Virus record (IMG/VR): IMGVR_UViG_3300037110_000161
Span: 1-64,000 of that record
Source of the DNA: a virus
Reading direction: 5' to 3' (one strand)
DNA length: 64,000 nt
Below are positions 20,827-52,316 of the stretch, piece after piece; position 1 is the stretch's first letter, and each line of letters begins with the position of its first letter. Made by a program: the position numbers and the translations under genes. Below the pieces are notes generated by a model. That model did not search any database and had not been told where the DNA came from. It worked only from the letters and a program-made list of their open reading frames with translations.

Positions 20827-21396
20827 CTACGAAACTCGCGACAACCTCACCGCCTGGTCGTCGCGCAGGAAAGGCCTCAAGAGCGACCATGCCAGCGGAT
20901 TCGGCACGAGGTTGATAAGGTGTTCGATCGGCACCATGTTCCGCTCGTAGTGCGTGCGAACCTCGGCGTAGCCTTGGGCCGTGACGGAAAGGTTCTCCAA
21001 CTCCATCTGCGGGTCTACGCCGTCCAGCAGACTGTAGGCCAATTCGTACTCGGCCCGGCGGATGGCCTCGGGCACAATCGTGTCCGCGCCGCGGGGGAAC
21101 TCCAGCTCTTGGCTGGCATCCGCCGCACGCTCATCTTGCCGATATTGCTCCGCCTTCTCCCGATCGAATGTGCCATTGGTAGGATCACGCCAAGGTGGCA
21201 GCGTTTGTTGGCGAAAAAGCCAGACCGAATGCTTTTCCCCTTTGAAGGCCAAGTTGTCGATCAACCGCCGGGCCGCCAACAAAGCCTTTGGCCAATCCGC
21301 GTCGTCGGCGTCATTCCAGGCTTGCGAGTGCAGCCGGCCGGCAAAGTAGTCTTCCGCTTCACCAAGGTCGCCGTAATACGTTGCGTCAATCGCCAT
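20827..21396 (-). CDS. Head-tail connector / head completion protein
   Basis: Y..L.EA..YF..RL...W...KAL..A...ID.L.F.G and Q.LEFPR...VP..I..A..ELA motifs of head-tail adaptor families. Confidence 0.7.
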   Translation of the reverse strand: MAIDATYYGDLGEAEDYFAGRLHSQAWNDADDADWPKALLAARRLIDNLAFKGEKHSVWLFRQQTLPPWRDPTNGTFDREKAEQYRQDERAADASQELEFPRGADTIVPEAIRRAEYELAYSLLDGVDPQMELENLSVTAQGYAEVRTHYERNMVPIEHLINLVPNPLAWSLLRPFLRDDQAVRLSRVS

Positions 21397-24848: not shown

Positions 24849-24858
24849 CACAGCGACC

Positions 24859-25653
24859 TCACGGTGCAAAAGCGTACCAACTCAAGCTCCCGCTCGCATC
24901 GGACTTCAAGCACCAAAACTGATTGACACCAACGGGTGCGGGAGGCAAGCCCACGCTCGGACCTGTTGCACCCGTAGCGCCCTTCTCGCCGACAGGCCCA
25001 CGGGGGCCTGTTGCCCCGGTCGCACCTGTGGGCCCGGGATCGCCCTGGTCGCCCGCTGCTCCTTGTAGCCCTTGTGGACCGGACGGACCGCAGGGACCGG
25101 TCGAGCCAGCCGGGCCGGTGGCACCGGTCGGGCCACCGACCGGACCGGTCGCACCTGTTGCGCCTGTAGGACCAGACGGGCCAGTCGCACCCGTTGGGCC
25201 GCCGGATGGCCCACTAGGGCCCGTTGCACCCGTGGGGCCTGTGGCACCGACCGCCCCATCACTTCCCACTGGACCTGTCGCGCCCGTTGGTCCTGTTGCG
25301 CCGACCGCCCCATCGCTTCCAGCGGGTCCTGTCGCACCAACGGCCCCAGCGTCTCCTGTGGGGCCTGTTGCTCCGGCAGGACCAGTCGCACCGACAGGAC
25401 CGGTGGCACCTGTTGCCCCAACTCCGTCATTGCCCGGTGCGCCACTTGGCCCAGCGGGTCCGGTGGCACCCACAGGTCCCGTGGCACCCACAGGGCCAGT
25501 GGCCCCCTGCGCGCCGGTGGGACCCGTCGCGCCGAGGCGACCCTGCGGCCCTGTTGCGCCGACTGGGCCGGTTGGACCCGTGGGGCCGCCCGATGGACCA
25601 CTCGGCCCTTGGGGGCCCGTTGCACCGGTCGGATCAGCATAGATGAATGCCAC
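24859..25653 (-). CDS. Collagen-like protein (short)
   Basis: Gly-X-Y triplets over most of the 264 aa with a short C-terminal knob. Confidence 0.85.
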
Positions 25654-25655
25654 GG

Positions 25656-25979
25656 CTAGACTCCCATCCAGGCCAAGTCTTGATTGGAGCTTTGTGAAAT
25701 CACATAAATCTGCGAGGGGTCCTCAATGGGCAGGTCGATGCTGCTGCCTGGCAGAAGCGGCACACCACCTGTTCCCACCGCCGCATCTGCCGTGACCGCC
25801 TTGCGGCCGACAAAAATCACGTCCGTGTTCGGATTCAGGTCATTAGGACCCGGAGCCCGCAGCAAAATGCCCCGGACCAATTTCATCGACAACGGTGTCA
25901 AGGGCACTGCCACCGGACCAACCACCGTATGCCCATGTTGCAACGCGGACGATGGCGAGGTTTCTTTGACTTCCCACAT
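25656..25979 (-). CDS. Small virion protein (possible fibre adaptor)
   Basis: GAGG RBS before MWEVKETS; N.DVIFVG...G.PL.PG beta-sandwich pattern; 107 aa. Confidence 0.6.
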
Positions 25980-25981
25980 GG

Positions 25982-27874
25982 CTATTCCTCTTGATTGTGC
26001 TTGCCCTGGCCGCGCACGGGCGTCTTGGTCGTGTCGTTGAGAGTGGTGTCGCGGCTGGCGGCCTTCTCCACCTTGCCCGCGCCGGGGTTTGCCGAGAGAT
26101 CGTGGACGCCACGCGCGCCGGCGTCGCTGTTCATCTGCCCGACCTCGTTCAAGGCCGTGGATTCGGAGCCAGCCAGTTTCTCGGTAGCCGGATCGCGGCT
26201 GGTGGCCCCGGTGGTCTCGGTGCCCAATTGGCCGCCTCTTTGCTGGGCCTGCAAAATCCGAATCGCCCTGGCCGCATGGTCCGCGCGGGCCTGGATGTGC
26301 TCGTCGTCGTTGAAGCCCAGGGCCATTGAGCCGGTCTTCTCGCCGCACAGACCGGCCTCGACCGCCGCAATGATGGTCGTGGGGTCGCTGGTGGCGTAGG
26401 GGGCCTTGTCGATCTCATCGAAGATGGCTTGCATGTCGCTGACGCTGATCTTGCCTCCCAAAAGCGCCAAGACGATGTTCTTTGCCAGCTCGCGTTTAAC
26501 CTTCTGCCCGGGCACGGCGTACATCAACTTGACCAGGCTTTGGGCTTCCGCAATCCGATCGGAATCCGTCTTCAGGCTGTAGCGGTCGGGATATTTGATT
26601 GTGGCGACGTTCCGCTGCGAAACGTTTCGCTCTTCGTAGGCCGCCCAGAACTCGGCAATCTGCCGCTCGGCCGCCTCCAGGACCAAACCGATGTAGGACA
26701 GACCGGCTTCAAGCCCTTGGTTGTCCATCGACTTCGATTCCGCCGTGGCCCGGTTCGCCGTGTCTGCGACGGCCAGATGGATCAGCTTGCGGATGCCGTC
26801 CTCCAGCTTGGCTTGCAGGTCCATCGACGCCTTTAACGGTTCGCTCGACGGGTTGATGAACGAGGGAGCGTTCATCCCCTTGTCGTAGGTCCGGCCCTGA
26901 GTCACTCCGACCCGGATGTCATTGTCGGCACCAGGCTGTCCGCCCGTCGTCGCCGTCCCGTCTTCGCCCACGGAACTCTTTAAGTGGCCGCCCGTGGCCC
27001 GCTGGTCCTTTTGCTCGATATAGAAGGGGAAGTTGGCCTTGAGGGCGTAATTCACGTCGCCCGAGCCCAGGTTCAAAAGCGCGATCTGGTGCTCCACCAC
27101 GTCCTTAATCATCGAGTCGCCGATGTCCAGCAACACGAAAGGGATGCGCGTCAACTCCAACTCCACGGCCCCGGCCGGGTTCCCCTCACGGTCGATGGGA
27201 TTTCCGGCGGTGTCCAGAAATTGCAGGTTGACCAGACCCGTGTCGCGGTCGATCCACAACATGCGGAACCGCTCGACGGTCGTAGTTGGCAGGTAGGTCC
27301 GCTGGTCGAAGTTGAGAACTACGTCGCGGAGCAGAATCGCCTGGAACGTGGACGGCTCGTCCGGCTTGGAGCAAGTCCAGCTCAGGATGTCTTCAATGGG
27401 GTAGAAGTACAGGTACGGCCGATAATTCTTCACGTCCGCCAAGGTGGCGTTGCCCGGGACCAGTGGGGAATCGACGTACACGCCCACGCGGCCCATAATG
27501 AGCAACTCGGTCAGTACCTTGATGCCCAAGAAGCCGTTCATGGTGTTGCCGCGGAGATCGACGCCCAGGTCCAAGCCGTTGACCGCCCGCTGATACGCAC
27601 TGCTGCCGTCGCGCCGGCTCGTGTCCTTGAGCCGCTGGAAGATGGCATTGCGGACATCGTTGATAGCCACCCGAGCAAACGATGGGATCGGCGTCATATC
27701 CAGCCGCGCCTGGAACTCCGGTTCATCCTCCCGCGACGAGAACTTTTTGAGGTACAGCTTGCGGAAGTATTCGCCGCCGTTGTAGCAAATCCGCCATTTG
27801 CGCCAGTCCAGCAGGCTGCTGAGGTAACTCGGGTGCCTGACTTCGACGATGTTGGTGATGAACTCAACAACCAA
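25982..27874 (-). CDS. Portal protein
   Basis: Follows the terminase; HP.Y.....W.......GG N-terminus, GRVGVYVD and IPFV motifs; 630 aa. Confidence 0.85.
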   Translation of the reverse strand: MVVEFITNIVEVRHPSYLSSLLDWRKWRICYNGGEYFRKLYLKKFSSREDEPEFQARLDMTPIPSFARVAINDVRNAIFQRLKDTSRRDGSSAYQRAVNGLDLGVDLRGNTMNGFLGIKVLTELLIMGRVGVYVDSPLVPGNATLADVKNYRPYLYFYPIEDILSWTCSKPDEPSTFQAILLRDVVLNFDQRTYLPTTTVERFRMLWIDRDTGLVNLQFLDTAGNPIDREGNPAGAVELELTRIPFVLLDIGDSMIKDVVEHQIALLNLGSGDVNYALKANFPFYIEQKDQRATGGHLKSSVGEDGTATTGGQPGADNDIRVGVTQGRTYDKGMNAPSFINPSSEPLKASMDLQAKLEDGIRKLIHLAVADTANRATAESKSMDNQGLEAGLSYIGLVLEAAERQIAEFWAAYEERNVSQRNVATIKYPDRYSLKTDSDRIAEAQSLVKLMYAVPGQKVKRELAKNIVLALLGGKISVSDMQAIFDEIDKAPYATSDPTTIIAAVEAGLCGEKTGSMALGFNDDEHIQARADHAARAIRILQAQQRGGQLGTETTGATSRDPATEKLAGSESTALNEVGQMNSDAGARGVHDLSANPGAGKVEKAASRDTTLNDTTKTPVRGQGKHNQEE

Positions 27875-35100: not shown

Positions 35101-36429
35101 CTAATCGCCGCCACCTTCAAGCATGGCAGCGTCGAACTCCTCGTCAAATTCGGCTCGTGCAGCATCAACCATCGGCTTGATCTGCGCCCTGATCTCTTCG
35201 GAGGATTCGCTCTGATACACTTCGTCGAGAAGATCTGATCGCCCCTCGAGTTCTGCACACGCGCCAGCATAGTGCGTATCATCGTAAGCTCCTAGGATCG
35301 CCTCAACCCACACCTTGCGCCCTTCGGCTGGCGTCGACAAGTAGTCTTTCACGGCTTCTCCCGTGCTCATCAAATAGAACATCCGCCGCAGCCGTGGGTC
35401 GGACACAACCTGGTCCGTGTGGTTTTCTCGCATGAGGCGACGGAGAGTCTCTTCACCGTAAAGTTCTAGGACTGCCTGAACGAATCGTCGCTGCCGAGGG
35501 CTATCCGAACCGAGGTCGCTTCCCAACTTCCGAAAGATGCCATTGCGTTCAAGCCACGACCACGCGTCGCGGCGGCGGTAATTGCTCAAGCACTCGATTA
35601 CCACATCGAGACTCGGTCGGCTTTCGGGCTCCTTTGCGAGCATTCGCCGCACAACGTTGCCGAGGTATCTCCGCTCAGGCGACCAGCCGGAATCCTCGAT
35701 CTCTATGGGTTGGTTTCGGACGGCCATCACCAGCCGAGAATAGAGACCAATATCGGAAAAAATCGGCTGCCCGGTAAGAAGCTGATAGCCTATTGTGCCC
35801 AACGAATAGACATCCGAAGAAGTGCTGCATTCCTCCCGGAACAGCCATTCGGGCGCTGCGAACCGAAGAGTTCCCAAGAAACTCTGTGAATTGGTAACGG
35901 TCGCTTCGCTCTGAAGTCGCACGACGCCCAGGTCGAGCAACACCGCTTGGCCGCCACTGTCGCGCATTACGTTCGCGGATTTCACATCTCTATGGAGAAT
36001 ACCGTGATCGTGCAGCGCTTTCAGTCCATTGGCGGTTCCGAGGAGCAGATTCCGAGCCAAATCCGTGGGCACAGGTCCACGGCTGGTCAGGCTTTCCAGA
36101 GTCTCGCCTGTAATAAGGCTCATCACCACGTACCGCGGCAAGCCATCCTTCCAGAAGGCGGCTGTATCGTGGACCTTCACGAGGTTCGGGTGTGCCAGGT
36201 AACTGCCGACCATCGACTCTCTAATTCGCCGCGCGATTATTATCCGCGCCTCTTCGCGTTCGAAAATCGCGGGGGCGTACCATTTCAAGCAGAATCGTTC
36301 ACCTGCTCGGAACGATGTCCACGGAACACTGAGCTGAACCTCGAAGACCGTCCCGGTGGCTCCGCTGCCGAGCTTCCGTTCTATCTTGAAAAGGCCGTCG
36401 ATTATCTCGCCAATTGCAGGGAGTCCCAT
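35101..36429 (-). CDS. Hanks-type Ser/Thr protein kinase with unknown helical C-terminal domain
   Basis: GSGATG, FCLK, HRDVKSAN, DLG, APE and DVYSLG motifs. Confidence 0.9.
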   Translation of the reverse strand: MGLPAIGEIIDGLFKIERKLGSGATGTVFEVQLSVPWTSFRAGERFCLKWYAPAIFEREEARIIIARRIRESMVGSYLAHPNLVKVHDTAAFWKDGLPRYVVMSLITGETLESLTSRGPVPTDLARNLLLGTANGLKALHDHGILHRDVKSANVMRDSGGQAVLLDLGVVRLQSEATVTNSQSFLGTLRFAAPEWLFREECSTSSDVYSLGTIGYQLLTGQPIFSDIGLYSRLVMAVRNQPIEIEDSGWSPERRYLGNVVRRMLAKEPESRPSLDVVIECLSNYRRRDAWSWLERNGIFRKLGSDLGSDSPRQRRFVQAVLELYGEETLRRLMRENHTDQVVSDPRLRRMFYLMSTGEAVKDYLSTPAEGRKVWVEAILGAYDDTHYAGACAELEGRSDLLDEVYQSESSEEIRAQIKPMVDAARAEFDEEFDAAMLEGGGD

Positions 36430-36466
36430 GGTTGTTTCTAACTTCGGCTGTGGGGCGAAGGTGCCG

Positions 36467-37399
36467 TCAGCGCGTTTCGCGCCACGGCACCTCTAAGCCT
36501 ATTACGCTCAGCTTCTCCTCCAACTCATCGCGCTCCCTGCTCCGCCGAAAGCCTTGCTCCTCCCGCACGAGCAATCCTTCCTCTTCGGCCCGCCGCACGG
36601 CCATCGCGATATCGCCACTATGCAGTGCGCGGATGATTTCCAATTCCAGGCGGGAGAATGAAACTGCTTGCAACTGAAAATCCAGGAATGCTTGCCAGGT
36701 GAGGGGGCACCATTTGCTGACGATCGTTTGCCCAATGATATTCGTGTAGCTGCGAATTTCCTGCTGCGCGTGTGCGTCCATGCGGAGCAGGAGAAAATGC
36801 AACAGGTTGTGCAGATCGATCTTCCAGTACGCCTCCGTGTACGTCGCTAGAGGTAAATCCTTTCTCGCCTGCTCCCTTGCAATGCCCAGTCGAAGGCGCT
36901 CTTCGTAGACGTCACGTGCCAGTACCTGTACAGCCTTCTCGCGATCGGAGAGATGTGCCCCGACTTCCGCATCGACGGTACCGCTACTCCCTTGCTGGTT
37001 CGTCTGGGACTGCTTCCGCCATTCTCCTGGGGTCGTCCGTTGCGCCGCGTCGATTGCCACCGAGTACCGTGTCGAGTACTCGTTCACATTCGCCGTCCTG
37101 TGCCGAATCCACTGTCGCCACGTATCCATCGGGACGCGCACATGCAGCTTGATTTCGCACATCTCGAAGGGCGTCGTATGGCGATGCCGCAGTAAGTAGC
37201 GTATCAGCCCCTGGTCTTCCCGTACTTTCTTGGTTCCCGTGCCGTACGAGACGCGCGCCGCCTGCACGATGGATTCGTCCGATCCCATGTAGTCGATGAC
37301 GCGCACGAAGCCATCATCGAGGACTTTGAACGGCACACCGAGGATCTCATCCAACGCCTCCACCCGCGGCCGGCTCAACTTCTCCCATTCTTTTTCCAT
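36467..37399 (-). CDS. thyX: FAD-dependent thymidylate synthase
   Basis: AARVSY, HTTPFE, RQWIRHRTANVNEYSTRY (RHRx7SxR), REQARKDLP and HAQQEIR motifs. Confidence 0.95.
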   Translation of the reverse strand: MEKEWEKLSRPRVEALDEILGVPFKVLDDGFVRVIDYMGSDESIVQAARVSYGTGTKKVREDQGLIRYLLRHRHTTPFEMCEIKLHVRVPMDTWRQWIRHRTANVNEYSTRYSVAIDAAQRTTPGEWRKQSQTNQQGSSGTVDAEVGAHLSDREKAVQVLARDVYEERLRLGIAREQARKDLPLATYTEAYWKIDLHNLLHFLLLRMDAHAQQEIRSYTNIIGQTIVSKWCPLTWQAFLDFQLQAVSFSRLELEIIRALHSGDIAMAVRRAEEEGLLVREEQGFRRSRERDELEEKLSVIGLEVPWRETR

Positions 37400-37419
37400 G
37401 GTTCTTCGACTCCTCCCAA

Positions 37420-39213
37420 CTATTGCTGCCTATCGGCACGGAGGATCGCCCGCGCCACCGCAGCCGCAAGGAGCGGCGGCACCGCGTCCGCCACCTGCTG
37501 CTGCTGGAAACCGATCGATCCCAAGAACTCGTACGAGTCCGGGAATGACTGCAATCTCGCCGCTTCCCGGACTGACAGACCGCGGCTCTGCGTCGGGTGA
37601 ATCAGCATGTTCTTCCGGAAGTTCCCGATCACCTTCGATGGCTCATTTCGCTTCAGGCGGAAGTAAATGCCCGTGTGGCAACGGGTGTAGTCCTTGTAGT
37701 TCCTCAGCAGCTTGTGCGGTATCGCCTCCCAGTTCTGTCCTGGCTTGATGCATTTGTACCGTTGGAGAACGTAGTCCGCGTTGCACGTCACGAGGTTCCC
37801 CTGCACGACGCCGTTCGTTTTCGATCGCATCATCACCTGGTACGCGGACAGCGTAGCGTCCGCTCTATACGGCAGGACATCGGTCTCATCTCCATTCCGC
37901 AGGAGCGGCAGATCCCCGATCGCCGCCCAGACGGACACGAGCGGTTGTTTCTCCGGCCCGTGCGTCGCTTCGAGAAACGGGATGGAGATTCCCAGGCGAT
38001 TCCCGATGACGAACACTCGTCGGCGCACCTGCGGGACGCCGAACTCTGCCGAATTCAATTCGCGACACTCCGCCTTGTAGCCGAAATCCTTGGCACCCCC
38101 GATGATCGCTTGCAGTACTTCGCCGCCGCCGAGCGTGCGAAGGCCGGCCACATTCTCCAAGACGAACCAAGCCGGTCGCATTACGTCCACGACATCCAAG
38201 AACTGTTGGTACAGATGATTGCGGGGATTATCGAGCGTCCGCGTCCGCCGGTTCGATTCAGAAAAGCCTTGACAAGGCGGCCCGCCGATGATCGCCGTCA
38301 GGTCGCCCGGTCGCAGCGCGAGCTTCCGCATGATCGCCTTTGGATCGACAGTCCGAATATCTTCTTGGACCACATCCGTGTTTCGGTGATTGTGCCGGTA
38401 GGTCGTCGCGACGCGCAGATCCTCCTCGACGGCCTGCACGATTGAGAACCCCGCTTCTTGGAACCCGACACTCATGCCACCCGCCCCCGCGAACAGATCG
38501 ACCGCAAGTGGCTTCGGCCGAACGGCGACCGGCAACGGTTTTTCCGCACGGCCGTGTGAACAGGAGCGCCGGAGACAGCACCCATCACACTGGGGCTCGA
38601 TCGCATGGCAGCGCGCGCGTCCATGTGCGACCGCGGCCACGTGGAATCCATGGCGAGACTCCGCAGGCACGGCATCCTGCAATGCCGCGTGCGCCGCGTC
38701 GTACGACAGGCGACGCGACACGAATCCCAACCGGACGCCCAAGCGAAAGGTGTGGATGTCTACCGGAAGCACCGGCATGTCGAAGCAGTATAGGAGCACG
38801 CAGCGTGCCGCCTTCTTGCCTACGCCCGGTAGCGCCACGAGCGCACGCTCGGCCTCGTCAGGCTCCATCCCTTTTAGCCAGGAGAGCGTCAGCTTGCCGT
38901 GGCGTGCCACGATGCTTCGCAGCATGTCGCGGATCAGTTTCGCCCGGCGTTGTCCCATACCGGCACAGGCGATAGTCTTACGGATCTCGGCCAATGTCGC
39001 CGTCCGTACCGCATTCCATGTTCCGAAACTCGCCTTCAGGTTCGCGTACGCCTTACGGTATTTCTTCTCATCAGTCTTCTCCGAGAGGAGGATGAAGACC
39101 AGCTCGTCGAGGGCATTCCGTTTGTTCCCCAGCTTCGGCAAGCCGTACTCTTGCAGCAGAAGCGCCGTCAGGCGCTTCACGCGATTCACATTCCGAGTCT
39201 TGGCCGTCTTCAT
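37420..39213 (-). CDS. Fusion of an HhH-GPD (EndoIII-like, 4Fe-4S) DNA glycosylase and a C5 DNA cytosine methyltransferase
   Basis: N-terminal LPGVGKKAARCVLL...PVDIH and Cx6Cx2Cx5C; C-terminal DLFAGAGG, GGPPCQGFS, ENV, QVRRR and SVREAARLQSFPD; ATG 39213 overlaps the upstream stop (ATGA). Confidence 0.9.
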   Translation of the reverse strand: MKTAKTRNVNRVKRLTALLLQEYGLPKLGNKRNALDELVFILLSEKTDEKKYRKAYANLKASFGTWNAVRTATLAEIRKTIACAGMGQRRAKLIRDMLRSIVARHGKLTLSWLKGMEPDEAERALVALPGVGKKAARCVLLYCFDMPVLPVDIHTFRLGVRLGFVSRRLSYDAAHAALQDAVPAESRHGFHVAAVAHGRARCHAIEPQCDGCCLRRSCSHGRAEKPLPVAVRPKPLAVDLFAGAGGMSVGFQEAGFSIVQAVEEDLRVATTYRHNHRNTDVVQEDIRTVDPKAIMRKLALRPGDLTAIIGGPPCQGFSESNRRTRTLDNPRNHLYQQFLDVVDVMRPAWFVLENVAGLRTLGGGEVLQAIIGGAKDFGYKAECRELNSAEFGVPQVRRRVFVIGNRLGISIPFLEATHGPEKQPLVSVWAAIGDLPLLRNGDETDVLPYRADATLSAYQVMMRSKTNGVVQGNLVTCNADYVLQRYKCIKPGQNWEAIPHKLLRNYKDYTRCHTGIYFRLKRNEPSKVIGNFRKNMLIHPTQSRGLSVREAARLQSFPDSYEFLGSIGFQQQQVADAVPPLLAAAVARAILRADRQQ

Positions 39214-40193
39214 GGAGGCAGCCCGTCGATGAACAGTGTATCGGCTCCCGACGAGTAGTCCCGCACGTTGTATTCGCCGGGCACACAGTACGTGACCTGT
39301 ATCTGCGGAAACTCCTCCACGAGCAGCAGCACCGCAAGCGTGGACAGCTTGGTGCTCATGGGAGCCAGTACGACGTTGCTCTCTCGCAGGCACGGCTCCA
39401 CCAGGCACCGCAACTGCGTATAACATTCGTGGATGTCGGCAGTTGCGAAACGGAACTCCTCCACGTCCTGACGGGACAACACCAACTCCTGCTCCGCGAT
39501 ATTGCGAGCCAGGAACCGTTCGGTCGTCGGCGGATCGCCGATGCCCATGAGCACCTTCTTCGGCTCATGCTCATCAATGACCTTCAAGACACGATCAGGC
39601 TCGAACCCAGCGAGGACAGCCAAGACCGTCGGCTGACTCGGGTCTTGGACACCCGAGAACCCAACGACGTTCCGGACGCTACGGAATCCTCGACTCAGCC
39701 ACGATCCATGGTCGGCCGGAGACACGTAGACTGCGCGCACCGTGGGCTTGGGCTCGAACGATCGGAGGAGGGCGGAGGCGATGAGAAGCGATTCCCTATT
39801 AAACGTCGTCGTGTCGATCGTCACCGTGGGTTGCTGATCCTGCGGCTGCCAGTCCGTCAGTAACGCCTTCCGTAGCGTCTCCAGTTGCTTCGGTGCGTCG
39901 AACAGCGAACCCTCCACGACATCCACCCGATCCGCGTGTCGCGCGAGAATTGTAATCAACTGGTACAAGTGCGGCCGTGTACCCACACCCTGGCAGCCTT
40001 CGAGGCACTCGCTGTTGGCGTAAATGATCGCCTGGCGAGCCCGGTATGTCGGCGGCAGGCACTCCGCGGCTTTCACGCTCCGCGGCTCGAAACTCGCGCA
40101 CGCGAGGAACAGATCGTCAGGCTTGCCAACAATTGCCGGCTGAAGCACCTGATCCCGAATCGCTTGGGCAATCGTACATCGGAAGGGACTCAT
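39210..40193 (-). CDS. Hypothetical protein, two Rossmann-like (CARF-like) repeats
   Basis: Paired motifs CASFEPR/LAGFEPDR and IDTTTFNR/APMSTK; ATGA-coupled on both sides. Confidence 0.6.
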   Translation of the reverse strand: MSPFRCTIAQAIRDQVLQPAIVGKPDDLFLACASFEPRSVKAAECLPPTYRARQAIIYANSECLEGCQGVGTRPHLYQLITILARHADRVDVVEGSLFDAPKQLETLRKALLTDWQPQDQQPTVTIDTTTFNRESLLIASALLRSFEPKPTVRAVYVSPADHGSWLSRGFRSVRNVVGFSGVQDPSQPTVLAVLAGFEPDRVLKVIDEHEPKKVLMGIGDPPTTERFLARNIAEQELVLSRQDVEEFRFATADIHECYTQLRCLVEPCLRESNVVLAPMSTKLSTLAVLLLVEEFPQIQVTYCVPGEYNVRDYSSGADTLFIDGLPP

Positions 40194-42019
40194 TCCTTCT
40201 CCTCCCCAGGGTCGCTCGGGAATAGTGGTCTGTTCTCGTCGTCCTCCACCACGCCGAGACGCATCCGGACGAACCGAGGAGGATCGCTGCAAGCAAGCTC
40301 CAAATGGTCGGAGCTCAATTGGATACGTCCTTCAAAGCCCGTTGGATCGAGCTTGAAGACCGGGCACAGGCGACGATTCAAGATGTACCAGGGCTGGCGT
40401 CCACCGCCTTCTTTCGTGCTGTAGGTGCGACGTTGGAAGTACCGATGTTGCACGCCGAGTCGCAGGATTTCCTCCAGGTTCGACGAGAGCGACTCGCGCA
40501 CAGTGAAGGAGAACACGCGAGCCTCGCGCGCCGATGGATCATGCAGCCGTTCGTAGAAGAGACGCCCCAGGGACTCGATCAACGTGCGCAACGCGTCCAA
40601 TTGGCTCCAATTCTCCGGCGGAAGATCCTTCCGGATATCCTGGAGCTTCACGTCCAGGAACTCTTCCGAGTACCGGTAGCAGACTTCATCCTGCACGCTC
40701 GGCGGTACTGCGCGCAGTTCACCCAGCTTCGCCCCTTTCTTCACGCATGCGTCCACCATGAGATAGCATGGTTCCAGGAAGTCCCGCACGATGCCCGACG
40801 AAAGATGCACCAGGTTCTGGAATCCAGCATAGCTCTTGCGCTGCTTCTTTCGTTTCAGTTCCTGAAACAGCCGCGCCGTCGCGTAGCGCGTGACGTAGTC
40901 GCCCTGCCTCCCCGGCTCTCCCGCCTTGTGCCACTCCTCTGCCGTCTCTTTCTTGATGTCGTCGAAGCGCTGCCGTTCCGTGTCATTCACCGGGAGGAAC
41001 TGGTCGATGTTCTTCTCCGGGAGCGGGGACAACGTCAGGCGGCGCTCGGCGATGAGTCGTACTTTGTTGGCGTAGTCGGACTTCGATTGGGTGTACAACT
41101 CCTCCACGTTGACTTCCGAGTAGTCATGCGGTTGCTCAATCAGGCCGCCCCGTAGCGTCAGGAGCGTGTCGTACTTCTCCCGTTGTGCCGAGACTTTCAC
41201 GCAAAGCCATTGGTTATCTCGGTTCGCGACCCAACTGTTGACGATCCTCTGTTGCACTCGGTTTAGGCGGTCCGCATCATCGAGGAGCACATACACGGAC
41301 GCACCACGGATCACCGGAAGGTCGCCTACCAACTGCATGAACGGCAACAGGAAATCATGGTAGCCGCTGGTCGCCCCCTCGTACTGCGTCTCGCCGCGGC
41401 CGAGGCACCGCCAGCGCAAGAATCCTCCGATCTTCAGATTCTCCAGGCTGAACAATCGGTGCAGCCAGCCCAGCGGATCAACGGCAATGTCGTTCGATTC
41501 CGTCGCTCCTCGCCCCGATGCGGCAATCGATGCCGGCTCGAAGAGCATGATCACCTTCTTCGCGAACGCCGTCAGCTCACATACGCCGATCACGCCGGCC
41601 GCGAACTGATCGCGCAAACACACAATCAGCCGATCCGCAATGGTGATGTTCAGGAGGTGCTCGCTCAAGATCGCCGTCGCCGACTCATCGAGCGTCTCGA
41701 ATTCCGTCTTGTTCAACTGCCCTTCCTTGCAGGGGCAGTACACGCCGAGGAATGGTTCGGACGTGCTGAAGACCTTCTCGATCCCGCCATGCACGATGCC
41801 CTGGCACTGTGGCTCCAAGTACCGCAGCATCATGCTCTTGCCGGAGCCTCTCGACCCCCAAATGAACGTGTGCCGACGCTGGCGGACCGTTTCGATCTGC
41901 GTGTACTGCTCGATGAAAAGGCCGACGAGTTGCTCCGGGGGCAACTTCTCCGGGCTCTCGACCACGAAAGGGTTACCGGGTAACAGGCCGGGAGTCGCAA
42001 GTGTATTCATATCGGTCAT
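40190..42019 (-). CDS. ORC/CDC6-like (STAND-type) P-loop ATPase with C-terminal winged-helix-like region
   Basis: NPF, GSRGSGKS Walker A, VLLDDAD Walker B, YAGF..L..LSSG.VRDFLE; ATG 42019 overlaps the HD gene stop. Confidence 0.8.
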   Translation of the reverse strand: MTDMNTLATPGLLPGNPFVVESPEKLPPEQLVGLFIEQYTQIETVRQRRHTFIWGSRGSGKSMMLRYLEPQCQGIVHGGIEKVFSTSEPFLGVYCPCKEGQLNKTEFETLDESATAILSEHLLNITIADRLIVCLRDQFAAGVIGVCELTAFAKKVIMLFEPASIAASGRGATESNDIAVDPLGWLHRLFSLENLKIGGFLRWRCLGRGETQYEGATSGYHDFLLPFMQLVGDLPVIRGASVYVLLDDADRLNRVQQRIVNSWVANRDNQWLCVKVSAQREKYDTLLTLRGGLIEQPHDYSEVNVEELYTQSKSDYANKVRLIAERRLTLSPLPEKNIDQFLPVNDTERQRFDDIKKETAEEWHKAGEPGRQGDYVTRYATARLFQELKRKKQRKSYAGFQNLVHLSSGIVRDFLEPCYLMVDACVKKGAKLGELRAVPPSVQDEVCYRYSEEFLDVKLQDIRKDLPPENWSQLDALRTLIESLGRLFYERLHDPSAREARVFSFTVRESLSSNLEEILRLGVQHRYFQRRTYSTKEGGGRQPWYILNRRLCPVFKLDPTGFEGRIQLSSDHLELACSDPPRFVRMRLGVVEDDENRPLFPSDPGEEKE

Positions 42020-43044
42020 GGCTTCAGCGCCTCGGCAAGGGTCTCCGGACGCCACTGCGGGTGGCGCTCGAAGAACGGTTGGAACAGTCCGACGCCCGGA
42101 TATGACGTGTGGTCCAGGCCGCAATCGCCGATGGGCAGCGTCAGGGTGTCATAGCCGCCGTGGCGTTCGGCTCCTCGGACGAGCGTCAGCCGGGCCTCGA
42201 TCTCCCGGATAGATGCGTATCTCGCCAGGCTCGTGCCACAGTAAATCCGTTCGTTATTCATTTTCTCCAGTCGGCACAGGACGTACTCCAGCACGGAGAT
42301 TTTTCCCTCACCATCGCAGCGCCCGTGGAAGTCTCTGCAGGGGCACCGACGCAGAATCGCATCCGTGTCGAGTTCGATCGTCACGACGATTCTCTCACGC
42401 TCCGGTTCCGGCCGGGCGCTCACGACCGCCCTGGCGTACTGCCAGTAGATCTGTTGGCCTTCCGGTACGTCGGGAAGCAGTGCAAGACTAATGCGTGAAC
42501 GGTTCTCGGACACCTCATCGGCGAACTTCAAGACGGCGGCGAGTGTTCGGGGATACACCTGGTACGTGACGGAGCCCATCGCGCAATCTTCGTCGGGTTT
42601 CGGGACGCTCAACCCCCTGTCGCCCGCATGCGCACGGACGATCTCGTTGACGAGGCGCTGTGTCGTAGGGCATGGGAAGCCAAGCGTGCGGATGCTCTCC
42701 ATCAACTTGAGCACCCGATCGGCATGATTCGAACGACCATAGACCATGCCCACGTCGTGCCAGATGATGGCGGCGAGCATGAGGAACAAATCCATCGTCG
42801 TGAGATCCGATTTGCTCTTCAACCGCGGTGCGAGCAGGTAGCCGGCAGTCTGGATGACCGACTGGATGTGCGGCTTGCCATGATCCGTGTAGTACGGGCA
42901 TGCGGTTTGCACCCACTCGTAGTACTCGGTTTCCAAGTACTGTCGCATCGTCTCGTACCGATGCCACAGATTCTCAGCGTTCGCGTCTTTCGCAGCGCGT
43001 CGCTCAAGTTCCCGCTCAAGGCTCGGCGTGTCTTTCATGCTCAC
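42016..43044 (-). CDS. HD-superfamily phosphohydrolase (conflict-system HD-CE type)
   Basis: YTDHGKPH, WHDVGM, H, AH and LAAVLKFADE motifs. Confidence 0.8.
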   Translation of the reverse strand: MSMKDTPSLERELERRAAKDANAENLWHRYETMRQYLETEYYEWVQTACPYYTDHGKPHIQSVIQTAGYLLAPRLKSKSDLTTMDLFLMLAAIIWHDVGMVYGRSNHADRVLKLMESIRTLGFPCPTTQRLVNEIVRAHAGDRGLSVPKPDEDCAMGSVTYQVYPRTLAAVLKFADEVSENRSRISLALLPDVPEGQQIYWQYARAVVSARPEPERERIVVTIELDTDAILRRCPCRDFHGRCDGEGKISVLEYVLCRLEKMNNERIYCGTSLARYASIREIEARLTLVRGAERHGGYDTLTLPIGDCGLDHTSYPGVGLFQPFFERHPQWRPETLAEALKP

Positions 43045-43139
43045 TCGCCCACGTTTGCAACGTTGAGAGCATCACCGGCGCTCGGAAATAACCCGACAGA
43101 GGCAAACGGATACACTGTTTAGACGGGGTGAAACCCCGA

Positions 43140-43167
43140 ATTATAACCGATTTGGGCAAAATGTGAA
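43140..43167 (-). promoter_or_regulatory. sigma70-like promoter of the six-gene island
   Basis: TTCACA-N16-TATAAT about 95 nt upstream of the HD gene, followed by a GGGGT-TTC-ACCCC hairpin. Confidence 0.6.
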
Positions 43168-48779: not shown

Positions 48780-49529
48780 TCAATGTGCCGGCAAAGCACC
48801 TTCCAGGGTGCGAAAGCGATTGATCCTACCCAAACACTCGGATGCGTGACGCTGGAACAGTCGCCATACAGCCGGTTTGGTGTAAGCCTTGCCATCGCGG
48901 GTGAAGTGGCCGTTTTCGTTGAGCCACTGGGCGATCTCGTCCAGCGTGCGTCCGTCGGCCCGCAGTTCCTTTATCGTCGGGACCAGGTGGGCGTACTTCC
49001 TGTCGGTTTCGGCGCGACGTTTCGCGGCCGACCGCTGCGTCGCCTTCCTGAACCCTCGCAGGTGCTCGCGGCCCTGCCACGCACCCTCGCGGGCCGAGCC
49101 CAGCTTGACGCCACGGGCCCTGGCGGCGGCCAGGGCCTTTCTCGTCCGCTCGCCGATAAGTCGCGCCTCCTCTTGGGCCACGGCAGCCAAGATGTGTAGC
49201 GTCAGGGTGTTGGCCCCCTTGCAATCGCAGCATACGAAGTCCACCTTCGACTCCATCAAGGCTGCCGTGAAGGCGACGTTGCGGGCAAGCCGATCCAGTT
49301 TGGCGACCACCAGCGTGGCGTTGGAGAGCTTCGCATGGGCGAGGGCCTTCGCCAGCTCCGGTCGATCGGGGGTCGTTCCTGTCTCGATTTCGGTGTAGTG
49401 GGCGATCTCGCTGCCACCCGACTCAGCAATCAGCTTCAAGACATCCATTTGTTGGGCCTCAAGACCCAAGCCCGACCTGCCCTGACGCTTGGTGCTGACG
49501 CGGTAGTACGGAATGAAGCGTGCGGTCAT
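48780..49529 (-). CDS. Serine recombinase (resolvase family) with C-terminal recombinase/HTH domain
   Basis: YYRVST catalytic Ser, GLEAQ, RPEL, KLDRLAR and E...I.ERT motifs. Confidence 0.9.
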   Translation of the reverse strand: MTARFIPYYRVSTKRQGRSGLGLEAQQMDVLKLIAESGGSEIAHYTEIETGTTPDRPELAKALAHAKLSNATLVVAKLDRLARNVAFTAALMESKVDFVCCDCKGANTLTLHILAAVAQEEARLIGERTRKALAAARARGVKLGSAREGAWQGREHLRGFRKATQRSAAKRRAETDRKYAHLVPTIKELRADGRTLDEIAQWLNENGHFTRDGKAYTKPAVWRLFQRHASECLGRINRFRTLEGALPAH

Positions 49530-49551
49530 CGTGGTGTGTCCTTCTAGTATT

Positions 49552-49579
49552 ATCATACCACGAAATGGCTGAATGTCAA
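49552..49579 (-). promoter_or_regulatory. sigma70-like promoter of the serine recombinase gene
   Basis: TTGACA-N16-TATGAT with a TG extension. Confidence 0.7.
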
Positions 49580-50247
49580 ATCGCCAAACGAGATTTTCGG
49601 AGTGGCGGGGACGGCTTTTCAGCAAGGCGCGACATCCACGAACGTCGAGATGGCATTCCGGGGCGCCATCCCACGCCTCACGATCCAAGCGGGGGCACCC
49701 AGCGAGGAACACCAGCGCGGTGGCCCAACCTATCGTCATGCGGAGCTGGGTGCGCGAGGCTTGTGCGGCCCGGTGAACGTTTTCCTACCGGAGGGCCAAT
49801 CCAGTCGCTGCTCGGCTCTCCGTTTCCGGACCGATGCTCGCCGCAACCCTTGTGGCCCTTGTGCCGGGGTTTGCACCGGGGGGTGGGATGAGGTAGGATT
49901 GAATCGACAATTTGAAATTGACGCGCAAGCGTCGAGTCACTGCTTCCCAACGAACGACCAACCTGGGCTTCCGAGCCCTTGAACGTGAAGGCAGTGCTTG
50001 ACCGCGCTTCCCCGAAAGGGGGAGCGTCGGCCGGCACTGTTTCACGTTGCCCCTTGGTCGGGGCGTTGGGAGCAGTCTGGTTTGACGCTCCCCTGTCTTT
50101 TTTCGGGGCCTGCATGACCGCACGCGATCGTCTTGCTCAACAGTTCGACGAATTACGCGATAGGGTTCGCGCTCTGTCCACAGTCATGAGCTGGCCCGGT
50201 CTGCCACAGGTGGGCCTTGTTGCCGACATCGATCTCACAGGTGCATC

Positions 50248-50708: not shown

Positions 50709-51102
50709 TCGCCAAGGCCGTGAACACGGCGTTGGACTCTTCGCAGCCAGCCAGGGCGCGCTTCCACTCGTTGACCATGTATCGGGTCACGCCCCAGAAG
50801 TGTGCTACGGCCACCTCGTCTTCTTCTGCCACGGCGCGGACCAGGCCGGCGAACAGAATCGGCATGAGGCCCTTGTGCCGGCCACGCTTGCAGTGGAAGC
50901 CCGGCCAGGGAATCGGCGCCTCAGTCATGCCTTCCACCGTGACATCCCCGTAATACTCGTCGTGGACCGTCGAACCGACCTTGACGCTCGGCGGCATGTA
51001 CGGGCCGGCACGGAACGGATACCCGTTGGCCAGCGGATATTCGACGGCCGTCGGCTGCTCGCCGCTGTCGCGGGGCTTCGCCCTTTGTTTTGCAGCCGTC
51101 AC
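50656..51102 (-). CDS. HTH-containing hypothetical protein
   Basis: AVAHFWGVTRYMVNEWKRAL helix-turn-helix pattern; GTGA overlap with the upstream gene. Confidence 0.6.
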   Translation of the reverse strand: MTAAKQRAKPRDSGEQPTAVEYPLANGYPFRAGPYMPPSVKVGSTVHDEYYGDVTVEGMTEAPIPWPGFHCKRGRHKGLMPILFAGLVRAVAEEDEVAVAHFWGVTRYMVNEWKRALAGCEESNAVFTALAIKRADPAFRWKYGYPQV

Positions 51103-51833
51103 GCCGTCTTCTCCATGCACGGGATGATTTGCGGCTTGCCGCCGCGATCCTTGACTTTGCCCAGAAAACCGTCACCGAGGTAGCGTTTCAGCAACCGCCA
51201 CACCGACACCTGATTGAATGGATGGCCAGCCGTAGTCGTATGCCCATTGTTGTTCAACCATTCGGCGATCTCGTCCATCGTCTTGCCGGCTTCCCGCATT
51301 TCCTTCAAGGTCGGCATGATGAAGCGGTAAGTCTCTTCGGTGCGCTGCCGCCGCAACTTTGCCGACTGGGCGATCGCTTTCTTCGTCCCCCGCAAGTGCT
51401 CCCGACCTTCCCAATGGCCAGGCCGTGCCGACCCCAGCTTGATTCCCTTCCTCTTGACGGCCTCGGCCAGGGTCCGCTTCGTCCGCTCGCTGATCCGCCG
51501 CGACTCCTCCTCGGCCGAGGCGACCAGGATGTGGACCGTGAACTTGTTGCACTGCTCGTTATCGAGACACGCGAAGTCCACGCGACTCTCAAGCAAGATC
51601 GCGAGAAACCTGGCGTTTCGCCCAAGGCGGCCGAGTTTCGCGATGACCAGGACCGCCTCGTCGCGGCGGCACTGCTCAAGGGCTTCCACCAATCGGGGCC
51701 ACTGCCGCTTTCCTTCCACGAATTCGGCGATCAACGCGCCGTTGTTGAACTTGACGAACTCCGCCACAGCCGAGCGGTCGGTCTGCCGATAGTGGTAAGA
51801 GACATACTTGACTTTTGTCGTATGGATATTCAT
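51099..51833 (-). CDS. Serine recombinase paralog with degenerate catalytic motifs
   Basis: Collinear with 48780-49529 (KLGSAR.G.W.GREHLRG, DEIA.WLN.NGH) but YRVST becomes YRQTD and DRLAR becomes GRLGR. Confidence 0.8.
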   Translation of the reverse strand: MNIHTTKVKYVSYHYRQTDRSAVAEFVKFNNGALIAEFVEGKRQWPRLVEALEQCRRDEAVLVIAKLGRLGRNARFLAILLESRVDFACLDNEQCNKFTVHILVASAEEESRRISERTKRTLAEAVKRKGIKLGSARPGHWEGREHLRGTKKAIAQSAKLRRQRTEETYRFIMPTLKEMREAGKTMDEIAEWLNNNGHTTTAGHPFNQVSVWRLLKRYLGDGFLGKVKDRGGKPQIIPCMEKTA

Positions 51834-51867
51834 AATCAACCCCGCTTTATTTCTGGCCTGTAGCGCA

Positions 51868-51896
51868 AGCTTACACCACCTCCAAGGGAAAGTCAA
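51868..51896 (-). promoter_or_regulatory. sigma70-like promoter
   Basis: TTGACT-N17-TAAGCT upstream of 51833. Confidence 0.5.
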
Positions 51897-52316
51897 ATGG
51901 ACGCAAATGTGGTCACGCCGATGCTGACGCTTTTCCGTTCCGACGAACCTTCCTATCAACCGCTTCATCCCTCAAAATCGCTTCAACCCGAAGACGGCGA
52001 TCCGCAGGCGTCGCTGGAAAACTTGAAGCAGCTCGGACTGGTGATTCAGGAGATCTGGGCGCGGAAGGGACTCTCCCGAATCTTGATCCAGTTCGCCACG
52101 GGCGAACAATACGTTGCGCTCGGCTTGCGGAACCCGGCGGCTTTGGCTTTTCTCGCCTCGAACGCCGGCTTCGGCGACTACCACGAACTGGAATCGTTCT
52201 ACGCCCGCCTGCCGGCCGACTATGACGGCAAGCTGCCCGCCGTGACGGATCGCCACGGCATGCTGCCGCCGAAAGAGTACGACGACGCAATCCCCGCACC
52301 CGCAGGCGACCGGTAA
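51897..52316 (+). CDS. Hypothetical protein
   Basis: 139 aa, AAGGGA RBS, GC3-rich codons. Confidence 0.55.
   Translation: MDANVVTPMLTLFRSDEPSYQPLHPSKSLQPEDGDPQASLENLKQLGLVIQEIWARKGLSRILIQFATGEQYVALGLRNPAALAFLASNAGFGDYHELESFYARLPADYDGKLPAVTDRHGMLPPKEYDDAIPAPAGDR

What the first reader, a model, noticed from the sequence alone, without database searches (positions are those of the whole stretch)
35101..43167. Six-gene nuclease-free modification/defence island: HD hydrolase, ORC/CDC6-like ATPase, CARF-like protein, glycosylase::C5-MTase, ThyX, Ser/Thr kinase
Seen: one promoter (TTCACA-N16-TATAAT). The first four genes are chained by ATGA stop/start overlaps (42016-42019, 40190-40193, 39210-39213), then gaps of 20 and 37 bp lead to thyX and the kinase. 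The block sits between the late operon and the small-gene region. Catalytic motifs look intact and no restriction endonuclease or Vsr is present. Known: HD hydrolases, STAND/ORC-like NTPases, CARF domains and Hanks kinases each occur in anti-phage systems, and C5 MTases mark self DNA. Inference: a prophage-borne system centred on pyrimidine C5 chemistry, in which methylation marks self, the ATPase/CARF pair senses invasion and HD (nucleotide depletion) or the kinase acts as effector. I do not recognise this six-part combination as a named system.
Basis: partly seen in the sequence, partly recalled or inferred. Interest (0 to 1): 0.88.

Follow-up and report, generated by a model that had tools for sequence, protein, structure and literature searches.

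The report
Phage-borne methylase-linked HD/ATPase/CARF defence module
This phage carries a widespread but untested gene module, most likely an anti-phage defence, made of a cytosine methylase, an HD hydrolase, an ATPase and a double CARF-like sensor, which often sits beside a thymidylate synthase; the neighbouring kinase is not part of it.

Summary
The six minus-strand genes, the three ATGA overlaps, the 20- and 37-nt gaps and the promoter-like site are all present. The window is an IMG/VR viral record.

In 57 related loci and 3 plasmids the conserved unit is four genes, not six: C5-cytosine methylase, HD-CE hydrolase, ORC/CDC6-like AAA+ ATPase and a tandem CARF-like protein. The methylase is adjacent in 27 of 27 loci with enough flank.

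Two accessory modules recur:
- T:G repair: Vsr, or the HhH-GPD glycosylase that is fused to the methylase here.
- A thymidylate-synthase-type enzyme, within 84 nt in 25 of 56 loci and in 16 of 24 well-flanked ones. It comes in five forms, ThyX or ThyA-like, and is usually an extra copy.

The kinase occurs in 0 of 60 related loci, so it is a separate gene.

The CARF-like protein models as two CARF-like halves, and a complex model supports its binding to the ATPase (0.86; best control 0.00).

Best reading: a methylation-gated, nuclease-free immunity module. The mechanism is inferred. The components are already in Pfam and PADLOC, but no named system matched, and the source papers could not be read.

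The parts
43140..43167 (-). Promoter-like site TTCACA-N16-TATAAT upstream of the HD gene
   Evidence: 11 of 12 matches. The count of such sites in the region is not above the shuffles (3 against a mean of 3.2).
42016..43044 (-). HD-CE phosphohydrolase, 342 aa from the GTG at 43044. An ATG at 43038 is an alternative start.
   Evidence: PF24391, 63.6 bits against 27. H55, H59, H96, D97, R104, H107, H139, D176, E177, E180 and R184 are invariant in 32 sequences. AF2 model, pLDDT 92.6; the start codons.
40190..42019 (-). ORC/CDC6-like AAA+ ATPase, 609 aa. Its start overlaps the HD stop as ATGA.
   Evidence: PF24389, E 5.9e-91, full length. Walker A G55/G58/G60/K61/S62 and D247/D248 are invariant in 20 sequences.
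39210..40193 (-). Tandem CARF-like protein, 327 aa (CARF6 profile). Its start overlaps the ATPase stop as ATGA.
   Evidence: PDLC01917, E 4.9e-68. AF2 model, pLDDT 94.5, two Rossmann-like halves. Foldseek matches to Csm6, Cam1, Can2, Card1, Csa3, Can1 and Cap4-SAVED; predicted complex with the ATPase.
38542..39213 (-). N-terminal HhH-GPD (endonuclease III-like) glycosylase domain of the fusion protein, residues about 1-224
   Evidence: PF00730, E 1.7e-08. NF053634, E 6.1e-36, and TIGR01083 nth, E 1.1e-25, both below their cut-offs. The same fusion occurs in L004, L011, L016, L018, L019, L021 and L023.
37420..38508 (-). C5-cytosine DNA methyltransferase domain of the fusion protein, residues about 236-597. 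The whole protein is 37420-39213, and its start overlaps the CARF stop as ATGA.
   Evidence: PF00145, E 4.6e-59. TIGR00675, 175 bits against 100.65. GPPCQGFS is present. The motif X variant QVADAVP is shared by 18 of 41 system-linked methylases.
36467..37399 (-). ThyX, flavin-dependent thymidylate synthase, 310 aa. A frequent accessory of the module.
   Evidence: TIGR02170, 175 bits against 87.9; the RHR...S.R motif and the Arg aligned with the T. maritima residue mutated in 4gtl are kept; a thymidylate-synthase-type gene is adjacent in 25 of 56 loci.
35101..36429 (-). Ser/Thr protein kinase, 442 aa. It is adjacent and probably co-transcribed, but it is not part of the conserved module.
   Evidence: Pkinase, E 1.8e-36; mad6, E 3.6e-48, and PD-T4-6, E 1.4e-46; no homologue in 57 + 3 related loci; the C-terminal 150 aa matches no usable family.

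Best explanation
The window holds a phage-borne copy of a widespread mobile module. Its obligate core is four genes: a C5-cytosine DNA methylase, an HD-CE phosphohydrolase, an ORC/CDC6-like AAA+ ATPase and a tandem CARF-like protein. Two optional accessories recur: T:G-mismatch repair (here the HhH-GPD domain fused to the methylase) and a thymidylate-synthase-type enzyme (here ThyX).

Most likely it is a methylation-gated immunity system, similar in logic to R-M and BREX.
- The methylase writes 5mC on resident DNA (inferred).
- The ATPase and the CARF-like protein form a sensor/switch complex. A model supports the binding.
- On sensing an invader, the complex releases the HD-CE hydrolase against nucleotides, stalling replication (inferred).
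- The thymidylate-synthase-type enzyme would buffer or reshape the 5-methyl-pyrimidine nucleotide pool (inferred; this is the weakest step).
- In a lysogen the module would exclude other phages, while the methylase protects prophage and host DNA (inferred).

The kinase is a separate neighbouring gene, possibly a single-gene defence or a host-takeover kinase.
For: Gene order. HD-ATPase-CARF is kept in all 43 loci that hold all three genes.

Methylase linkage.
- A C5-methylase is adjacent in 27 of 27 loci with at least 1300 nt on both flanks.
- It is kept in the distant versions where the ATPase is 25-35% identical: L053, L057, L058 and the plasmid loci L060-L062.
- Every one of the 15 loci without a methylase hit is cut by a contig end.

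Distribution. The loci come from Acidobacteriota, Planctomycetota, Chloroflexota, Armatimonadota, Verrucomicrobiota, Thermodesulfobacteriota and Haloarcula, and from alphaproteobacterial plasmids. Recombinase or integrase genes flank L008 and L013. Other defence genes lie nearby: an NgoFVII-type endonuclease in L053, a type I S/M gene in L057 and AbiEii in L061.

Intact sites. The catalytic residues that are invariant across the family are present in the window's copies.

CARF-like protein. It has a CARF-like fold and carries the [DN]X[ST]XXX[RK] signature as D127-T129-R133, directly after strand 4.

ATPase-CARF complex. Score 0.86; best of 3 controls 0.00. That mark was reached by 58 of 80 solved complexes and by 2 of 110 mismatched pairs. 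The runs agree in at least 96% of contacts, and the partner's pLDDT is at least 86. No solved relative of the ATPase exists by sequence. The interface includes conserved residues: ATPase K98, E99 and G100; CARF G169, R174, G178 and G181.

HD-CE elsewhere. The domain is fused to HSP90-type ATPase, RelA/SpoT and SAM-methylase domains in other protein clusters. 'CE' stands for conflict effector, predicted to target nucleotides (passages citing Nicastro et al. 2023).

Thymidylate-synthase-type gene.
- It lies within 84 nt of the core in 25 of 56 loci, and in 16 of 24 well-flanked loci.
- It comes in five forms.
- The form changes at least 12 times on the ATPase tree.
- It is an extra copy beside a housekeeping enzyme in 4 of 5 genomes checked.
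Against: - Nothing here shows methylation, protection or HD activity.
- The HD model has no Foldseek match at E <= 0.001. Only weak phosphodiesterase rows appear, with TM 0.2-0.33, so a nucleotide rather than a DNA substrate is not shown.
- No signal-making cyclase was found, so the CARF ligand is unknown.
- The role of the thymidylate synthase does not follow from an R-M-like model. Also, 8 of 24 well-flanked loci lack one.
- The loci are not independent: 3 pairs have identical ATPases, and many are close relatives.
- The complex model used my own unpaired alignments, so its calibration holds only roughly.
- HD-ATPase binding was not tested.
Confidence: 0.55

Rival explanations
1. The module is a true DNA-targeting restriction system. 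The ORC/CDC6-like ATPase loads on unmethylated DNA, and the HD domain cuts DNA, as the HD nuclease of Cas3 does. The CARF-like protein is only a structural or regulatory subunit.
For: The strict linkage with a methylase (27 of 27) and with T:G repair is what classical Dcm-type R-M systems show. The invariant H..HD..H..H..D residues fit a two-metal HD site; that such sites include nucleases is recalled, not tested. ORC/Cdc6-clade ATPases bind DNA (passages).
Against: The HD-CE family is fused elsewhere to RelA/SpoT and HSP90-type modules and was named as a nucleotide-targeting effector. No nuclease appears among the Foldseek rows. This reading does not explain the thymidylate synthase.
Confidence: 0.2
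2. The module is not immunity but a 5-methyl-pyrimidine nucleotide or DNA-modification pathway. The HD hydrolase would remove dCTP or dUTP, the thymidylate-synthase-type enzyme would make dTMP or 5-methyl-dCMP, the methylase would finish the job on DNA, and T:G repair would handle deamination. This resembles the dCTPase plus dCMP-hydroxymethylase logic of T-even phages.
For: - The ThyA-like fusion enzymes lack the Asn of the H-x-Y-x-N motif: Asp in 4 of 6 and Lys in 2 of 6. That Asp at this site marks dCMP-specific enzymes is recalled, not tested.
- A dCMP deaminase lies two genes from the module in L024.
- Pterin and folate genes (FolE2, SDR, FTCD_C) flank it in L004.
- The window's copy is in a phage.
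Against: - The module lies mostly in cellular chromosomes and plasmids: 14 genome loci and 4 plasmids, against 1 other viral contig and 1 partial hit in 50,697 GenBank phages.
- 8 of 24 well-flanked loci have no thymidylate synthase.
- The window's ThyX keeps all the dUMP-site residues compared.
- A metabolic pathway gives no role to the ATPase-CARF sensor pair.
Confidence: 0.1
3. One reading: all six genes form one system, with the kinase as a second effector or as a regulator.
For: The kinase lies 37 nt downstream on the same strand. No terminator-like site was found on the minus strand between thyX and the kinase. It matches defence kinase profiles: mad6, E 3.6e-48, and PD-T4-6, E 1.4e-46.
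Against: No kinase homologue occurs in 57 related loci or in 3 plasmid loci, including the other viral contig L003. Its MAD6 NCBIfam score is 109 bits against a cut-off of 460.
Confidence: 0.05

Closest known systems
HD-CE 'conflict effector' systems with NTPase switches (Nicastro, Burroughs, Iyer and Aravind, NAR 2023; Pfam PF24391 and PF24389)
   Same: The HD protein and the ATPase match these two Pfam families above their cut-offs. The logic is an effector controlled by an NTPase.
   Different: I could not read the paper; it is not held. I therefore cannot say whether it describes the methylase, the CARF-like partner or the thymidylate-synthase link. No experiment on this module was found in the held library.
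BREX (passages of PMC12839542)
   Same: Self-marking by methylation, an ORC/Cdc6-clade ATPase at the centre, a phosphoesterase partner and no classical restriction endonuclease.
   Different: BREX uses PglX, PglZ, BrxA, BrxB and BrxL, and BrxC has 1200-1300 residues. Here the methylase is always a C5 type, the hydrolase is HD-CE, and the partner is a tandem CARF-like protein. No BREX profile matched except a weak PglW kinase hit, E 1.7e-10 against a cut-off of 990 bits.
PUA-Calcineurin-CE-HAD (bioRxiv 10.64898/2026.01.15.699771, passages)
   Same: A nucleotide-degrading 'CE' effector whose trigger derives from the host's own DNA methylation (m6-dAMP). This offers a model in which a methylase is needed although no nuclease is present.
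   Different: The sensor (PUA), the effector (calcineurin-like plus HAD) and the mark (Dam m6A) are all different, and the methylase is not encoded in that module. Transferring the idea to 5mC is my inference.
Type III CRISPR / CBASS CARF and SAVED sensors
   Same: A CARF-like Rossmann fold with the strand-4 signature. Two CARF units in one chain, as in Can1 and SAVED.
   Different: No Cas10 or CD-NTase signal maker was found in the locus. The partner is an AAA+ ATPase, not a fused nuclease. TM scores are low (0.26-0.50).
Dcm-Vsr type II R-M systems
   Same: A C5-methylase with linked T:G repair. Vsr occurs in 10 loci, and HhH-GPD is fused in 8 loci and separate in 2.
   Different: There is no restriction endonuclease. 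The HD/ATPase/CARF trio stands in its place.
Clover (CloA/CloB; PMC12265719, abstract)
   Same: An HD-superfamily nucleotide hydrolase used in defence and tuned by thymidine nucleotides.
   Different: The families and partners are unrelated, and Clover has no methylase. It is cited only as a precedent for a link between thymidylate and an HD effector.

Membership tests
HD-CE (PF24391) | Profile match above Pfam's gathering score | tested here: met
   63.6 bits against 27; the nearest Atlas clusters are 100% PF24391.
HD-CE (PF24391) | HD-superfamily metal-binding residues intact | tested here: met
   H59, H96, D97, H107, H139 and D176 are invariant in 32 sequences, the window's included.
HD-CE (PF24391) | Hydrolysis of free nucleotides | not testable with these tools
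   Only weak phosphodiesterase-like fold rows.
ORC-CDC6-like AAA+ ATPase (PF24389) | Full-length profile match with Walker A and Walker B | tested here: met
   306 bits, profile positions 1-571 of 571. GxxGxGKS and DD are invariant.
CARF superfamily | Rossmann-like CARF fold | tested here: met
   pLDDT 94.5. Csm6, Cam1, Can2, Card1, Csa3 and Can1 at Foldseek probability 1.00, but TM only 0.26-0.50. CARF6 profile, E 4.9e-68.
CARF superfamily | [DN]X[ST]XXX[RK] signature after strand 4 and a polar residue after strand 1 (PMC4012209) | tested here: met
   D127-T129-R133 follows strand 123-127, and S34 follows strand 26-33. The second half has S280-T281-K282 after strand 273-278.
CARF superfamily | A linked cyclic-oligonucleotide synthase (Cas10 or CD-NTase) | tested here: not met
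   None among the six genes and none among the recurrent neighbours. The rest of the viral record was not searched.
Type II restriction-modification | A cognate restriction endonuclease beside the methylase | tested here: not met
   No endonuclease family in the six proteins.
BREX | PglX, PglZ and BrxC core | tested here: not met
   PADLOC gave no hit for the HD or the ATPase. There is only a sub-threshold PglW kinase hit.
MADS | MAD6 kinase at equivalog level, with the other mad genes | tested here: not met
   109 bits against a cut-off of 460. No other mad profile hit.
PD-T4-6 kinase defence | Ser/Thr kinase matching the PD-T4-6 profiles | tested here: inconclusive
   E 1.4e-46, but the profiles cover only the generic kinase domain and PADLOC gives no cut-off.
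ThyX | Equivalog-level match and substrate-site residues | tested here: met
   175 bits against 87.9. RHR, S, R and the later Arg residues align with T. maritima ThyX.
Vsr | Vsr domain present | tested here: not met
   Not in the window's six genes. Present in 10 related loci.

The most novel reading that the evidence does not exclude
This would be a 5-methyl-pyrimidine immune circuit. The module's own Dcm-type methylome and its dedicated thymidylate-synthase or dCMP-methylase-type enzyme would set the levels of 5-methylated deoxypyrimidine nucleotides (5m-dCMP, dTMP). The tandem CARF-like protein, bound to the ORC/CDC6-like ATPase, would read these as a danger or a restraint signal, for example when a phage degrades methylated host DNA. 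That would switch on the HD-CE hydrolase to collapse nucleotide pools. It would be a 5mC counterpart of the m6-dAMP-triggered PUA-Cal-HAD system, and a CARF-type sensor working without any cyclase.
Probability: 0.18. Interest if true: 0.85.

Novelty: new variant of a known kind. Interest (0 to 1): 0.62.

Why it matters
The module recurs in at least seven phyla of bacteria and archaea, on plasmids and in phages. Even so, RefSeq calls its three central proteins 'hypothetical', and PADLOC names no system for them.

It ties four things into one unit: a strictly C5-type methylase, a nuclease-free HD effector, a CARF-type sensor with no signal synthase, and, in two thirds of well-flanked loci, an extra thymidylate-synthase-type enzyme of interchangeable origin. 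Swapping unrelated enzymes of the same type at one position is one of the stronger genomic signs of a functional link. No characterised defence system that I know of includes a thymidylate synthase (recalled).

Working it out would show how methylation can gate immunity without a nuclease, and what a cyclase-less CARF domain senses.

Tried and rejected
Literature.
- Searches for CARF6, HD-CE and ORC-CDC6-like found nothing relevant in the held library.
- Searches combining thymidylate synthase or thyX with CARF, cytosine methyltransferase, HD domain and defence gave 0 papers or 1 irrelevant paper.
- The two likely source papers are not held: Makarova et al. 2020 on CARF classification and Nicastro et al. 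2023. Whether the whole module is already described in print therefore stays open. Supplements were closed and not asked for.

Searches that found little.
- PDB sequence searches found nothing for the HD or the ATPase.
- Foldseek on the HD model gave no row at E <= 0.001.
- DNA similarity to GenBank phages hit only thyX.
- The Atlas gave no usable lead for the kinase's C-terminal part.
- Pfam gave nothing for 9 of 10 further window genes.

Ideas rejected.
- A thymidylate-synthase gene as a mere integration hot-spot. Five different enzyme forms, both orientations, both sides of the module and extra-copy status in 4 of 5 genomes speak against it.
- The module being phage-specific.

Full report
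WHAT IS THERE. Six minus-strand ORFs fill 35101-43044.
- Their family matches are HD-CE (PF24391), ORC-CDC6-like AAA+ ATPase (PF24389, full length), a protein matching the PADLOC CARF6 profile over its whole length (E 4.9e-68), an HhH-GPD::C5-methylase fusion, ThyX and a Ser/Thr kinase.
- The count of promoter-like sites in the region is not above chance (3 against 3.2).
- The window is part of a 73,270-base IMG/VR viral record.
- Terminase, portal, major head protein, tape measure, a collagen-like tail fibre and serine recombinases lie around the block.

THE CONSERVED UNIT. Using the ATPase as seed, I collected 57 related loci: 1 other viral contig, 14 genome contigs and 42 metagenome contigs.

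tblastn with the six window proteins and clustering of all ORFs gave these results:
- HD-ATPase-CARF lie in the same order in all 43 loci that hold all three genes.
- A C5-methylase is adjacent, upstream of HD or downstream of CARF, in 27 of 27 loci with at least 1300 nt on both flanks.
- 42 of 57 loci have a methylase hit. The 15 without one are all cut by a contig end.
- The tetrad persists in versions whose ATPase is only 25-35% identical to the window's: L053, L057, L058 and the alphaproteobacterial plasmids pDG3-1c, pRLG201 and a Yoonia plasmid.
- RefSeq annotates the three central proteins of pDG3-1c as 'hypothetical protein'.
- The kinase has no homologue in any of the 57 loci or the 3 plasmid loci. 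The conserved unit is therefore four genes, and the kinase is a neighbour.

ACCESSORIES. T:G-repair genes recur. Vsr is present in 10 loci. HhH-GPD is fused to the methylase, as in the window, in 8 loci, and is a separate gene in 2. The glycosylase domain thus fills the slot that Vsr fills elsewhere.

The more surprising accessory is a thymidylate-synthase-type gene, which lies within 84 nt of the core in 25 of 56 loci and in 16 of 24 loci with a full core and at least 1000 nt on both sides. It also occurs in 2 of 3 plasmid loci. It comes in five forms:
- long ThyX, as in the window;
- a short ThyX of about 214 aa;
- a tandem ThyX of about 470 aa;
- another ThyX form, in L018;
- a ThyA-like enzyme fused to MtrA-like and pterin-binding domains.

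Further points on this gene:
- On an ATPase tree of 47 rows (44 different) its form changes at least 12 times. Loci with identical ATPases (L007/L035, L024/L025, L045/L046) show that the sample is not independent.
- In 4 of 5 genomes checked, a second, housekeeping thymidylate synthase lies elsewhere. The linked gene is therefore an extra copy.
- The window's ThyX keeps the RHR...S.R motif and the later arginines that align with T. maritima ThyX, including the residue altered in 4gtl. It looks canonical.
- The ThyA-like fusions keep the catalytic Cys but have Asp (4 of 6) or Lys (2 of 6) where thymidylate synthases have the Asn of H-x-Y-x-N. That Asn-to-Asp shifts specificity from dUMP to dCMP is recalled from the literature, not taken from a call.
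- In L004 the fusion enzyme lies among FolE2, SDR and FTCD_C genes. In L024 a dCMP deaminase lies two genes away.

THE PROTEINS.
- ATPase: Walker A (G55, G58, G60, K61, S62) and D247/D248 are invariant in 20 sequences.
- HD: H55, H59, H96, D97, R104, H107, H139, D176, E177, E180 and R184 are invariant in 32 sequences. Its model is confident (pLDDT 92.6) but has no Foldseek match in the PDB at E <= 0.001; only weak phosphodiesterase rows appear. In the ESM Atlas the HD-CE domain is fused in other clusters to HSP90-type ATPase, RelA/SpoT and SAM-methylase domains. 'CE' stands for 'conflict effector', a family predicted to attack nucleotides (passages citing Nicastro et al. 2023).
- CARF-like protein: it models at pLDDT 94.5 as two Rossmann-like halves. 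Foldseek finds Csm6, Cam1, Can2, Card1, Csa3, the two-CARF nuclease Can1 (TM 0.50) and a SAVED receptor, all at low TM.
- The CARF signature [DN]X[ST]XXX[RK] after strand 4 (PMC4012209, passages) is present as the invariant D127 and R133 with the nearly invariant T129. The second half has S280-T281-K282 at the same place. Both halves carry an FEPxR motif after strand 1.

BINDING. A complex model of ATPase plus CARF-like protein supports binding.
- Score 0.86; best of 3 controls 0.00.
- That mark was reached by 58 of 80 solved complexes and by 2 of 110 mismatched pairs.
- The runs agree in at least 96% of their contacts, and the partner's pLDDT is at least 86.
- My own alignments were used, so the calibration holds only roughly.
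- The ATPase has no solved relative by sequence, so recall of a known complex is unlikely.
- Conserved residues of both proteins lie in the interface: ATPase K98, E99 and G100; CARF G169, R174, G178 and G181.
- The predicted ligand-pocket residues are not in the interface.

HOW IT PROBABLY WORKS. What is shown: a co-inherited tetrad with intact active sites, a modelled ATPase-CARF complex, sporadic distribution across phyla, mobile contexts (recombinases in L008 and L013, plasmids, two viral contigs) and defence genes nearby (NgoFVII-type endonuclease, type I S/M, AbiEii).

What is inferred:
- The methylase marks resident DNA.
- The ATPase-CARF pair senses invasion, either as unmethylated DNA or as a nucleotide ligand.
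- The HD-CE hydrolase is the effector.

In logic this resembles BREX, which has a methylase, an ORC/Cdc6-clade ATPase, a phosphoesterase and no classical nuclease. It also resembles the Aravind-type 'NTPase switch plus nucleotide-targeting effector' systems. The exclusive use of C5-methylases, the T:G-repair genes and the interchangeable thymidylate-synthase-type enzymes point to a specific dependence on 5-methyl-pyrimidine chemistry, which a plain R-M model does not explain.

Two published systems give precedents. PUA-Cal-HAD is triggered by methylome-derived m6-dAMP. Clover is an HD dNTPase tuned by thymidine nucleotides. A 5mC analogue is my boldest reading, at about 0.18.

The rivals are HD as a DNase (0.2), a nucleotide or DNA-modification pathway rather than immunity (0.1) and the six-gene version with the kinase (0.05).

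HOST AND CONTEXT. The window's ATPase groups, with SH-aLRT 97, with Isosphaeraceae loci that also carry long ThyX. This suggests a planctomycete host. The module is rare in phages: 1 other IMG/VR contig and 1 partial hit among 50,697 GenBank phage records. In a temperate phage it would act as a moron that excludes competitors (inference).

NOVELTY AND LIMITS. The parts are catalogued in Pfam (PF24389, PF24391) and in the PADLOC CARF6 profile. NCBI names homologues 'ORC-CDC6 family AAA ATPase'. No PADLOC system profile matched the HD or the ATPase. No held paper describes the module or a defence system with a thymidylate synthase.

I therefore rate it a new variant of a known kind, namely methylation-linked, NTPase-switched immunity. 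Its interest is real but moderate.

Noticed in passing
window 22665-24869 (-): A 734-aa collagen-like tail-fibre gene lies in the most G+C-rich stretch of the window (0.694 at 24001-26000). It matches many PHROG tail-fibre families in several stretches.
   Followed up: no
window 21386-22555 (-): A glycosyltransferase (phrog_3408, E 4.9e-75) sits among the structural genes, between the tail fibre and the head genes.
   Followed up: no
window 48780-49739 (-) and 51099-51968 (-): Two serine-recombinase-type genes lie about 1.4 kb apart: phrog_125/phrog_95, and PF00239 Resolvase. This suggests a temperate or invertible element.
   Followed up: no
window 35101-35562 (-), kinase residues 290-442: The C-terminal 150 residues or so of the kinase match no family, and the Atlas gave no usable look-alike (TM at most 0.38). 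It may be a sensor domain.
   Followed up: partly
L004 2553-4720 and 12689-13387; L021 likewise: The ThyA-like fusion form of the module is flanked by SDR, FolE2 GTP cyclohydrolase and FTCD_C genes. That would amount to a local pterin and one-carbon supply set.
   Followed up: partly
L024 9426-9986 (+): A dCMP/cytidine deaminase gene lies two genes downstream of the module's methylase.
   Followed up: no
L008 12139-12922 (-); L038, L044, L047, L049, L051: The linked short ThyX of L008 is split into two ORFs (159 + 101 aa). In five metagenome loci the ATPase is in two pieces. These may be frameshifts, decay or assembly errors.
   Followed up: no
L053 6729-7679 (-); L057 3947-5425 (-); L061 11115-12125 (+); L043 5463-6464 (+): Other defence-type genes lie next to the module: an NgoFVII-type endonuclease, a type I R-M S/M gene, an AbiEii toxin and a second Cdc6-like AAA ATPase.
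   Followed up: no
window 37420-38508 (-) and the methylases of related loci: Methylase motif X reads QVADAVP or QVADSVP instead of the usual GNAVP in 21 of 41 system-linked methylases. This marks a dedicated methylase lineage.
   Followed up: partly
L060 10319-12851 (-): On Agrobacterium plasmid pDG3-1c a second C5-methylase and a hypothetical gene follow thyX and vsr. This may be a second R-M-like unit back to back with the module.
   Followed up: no
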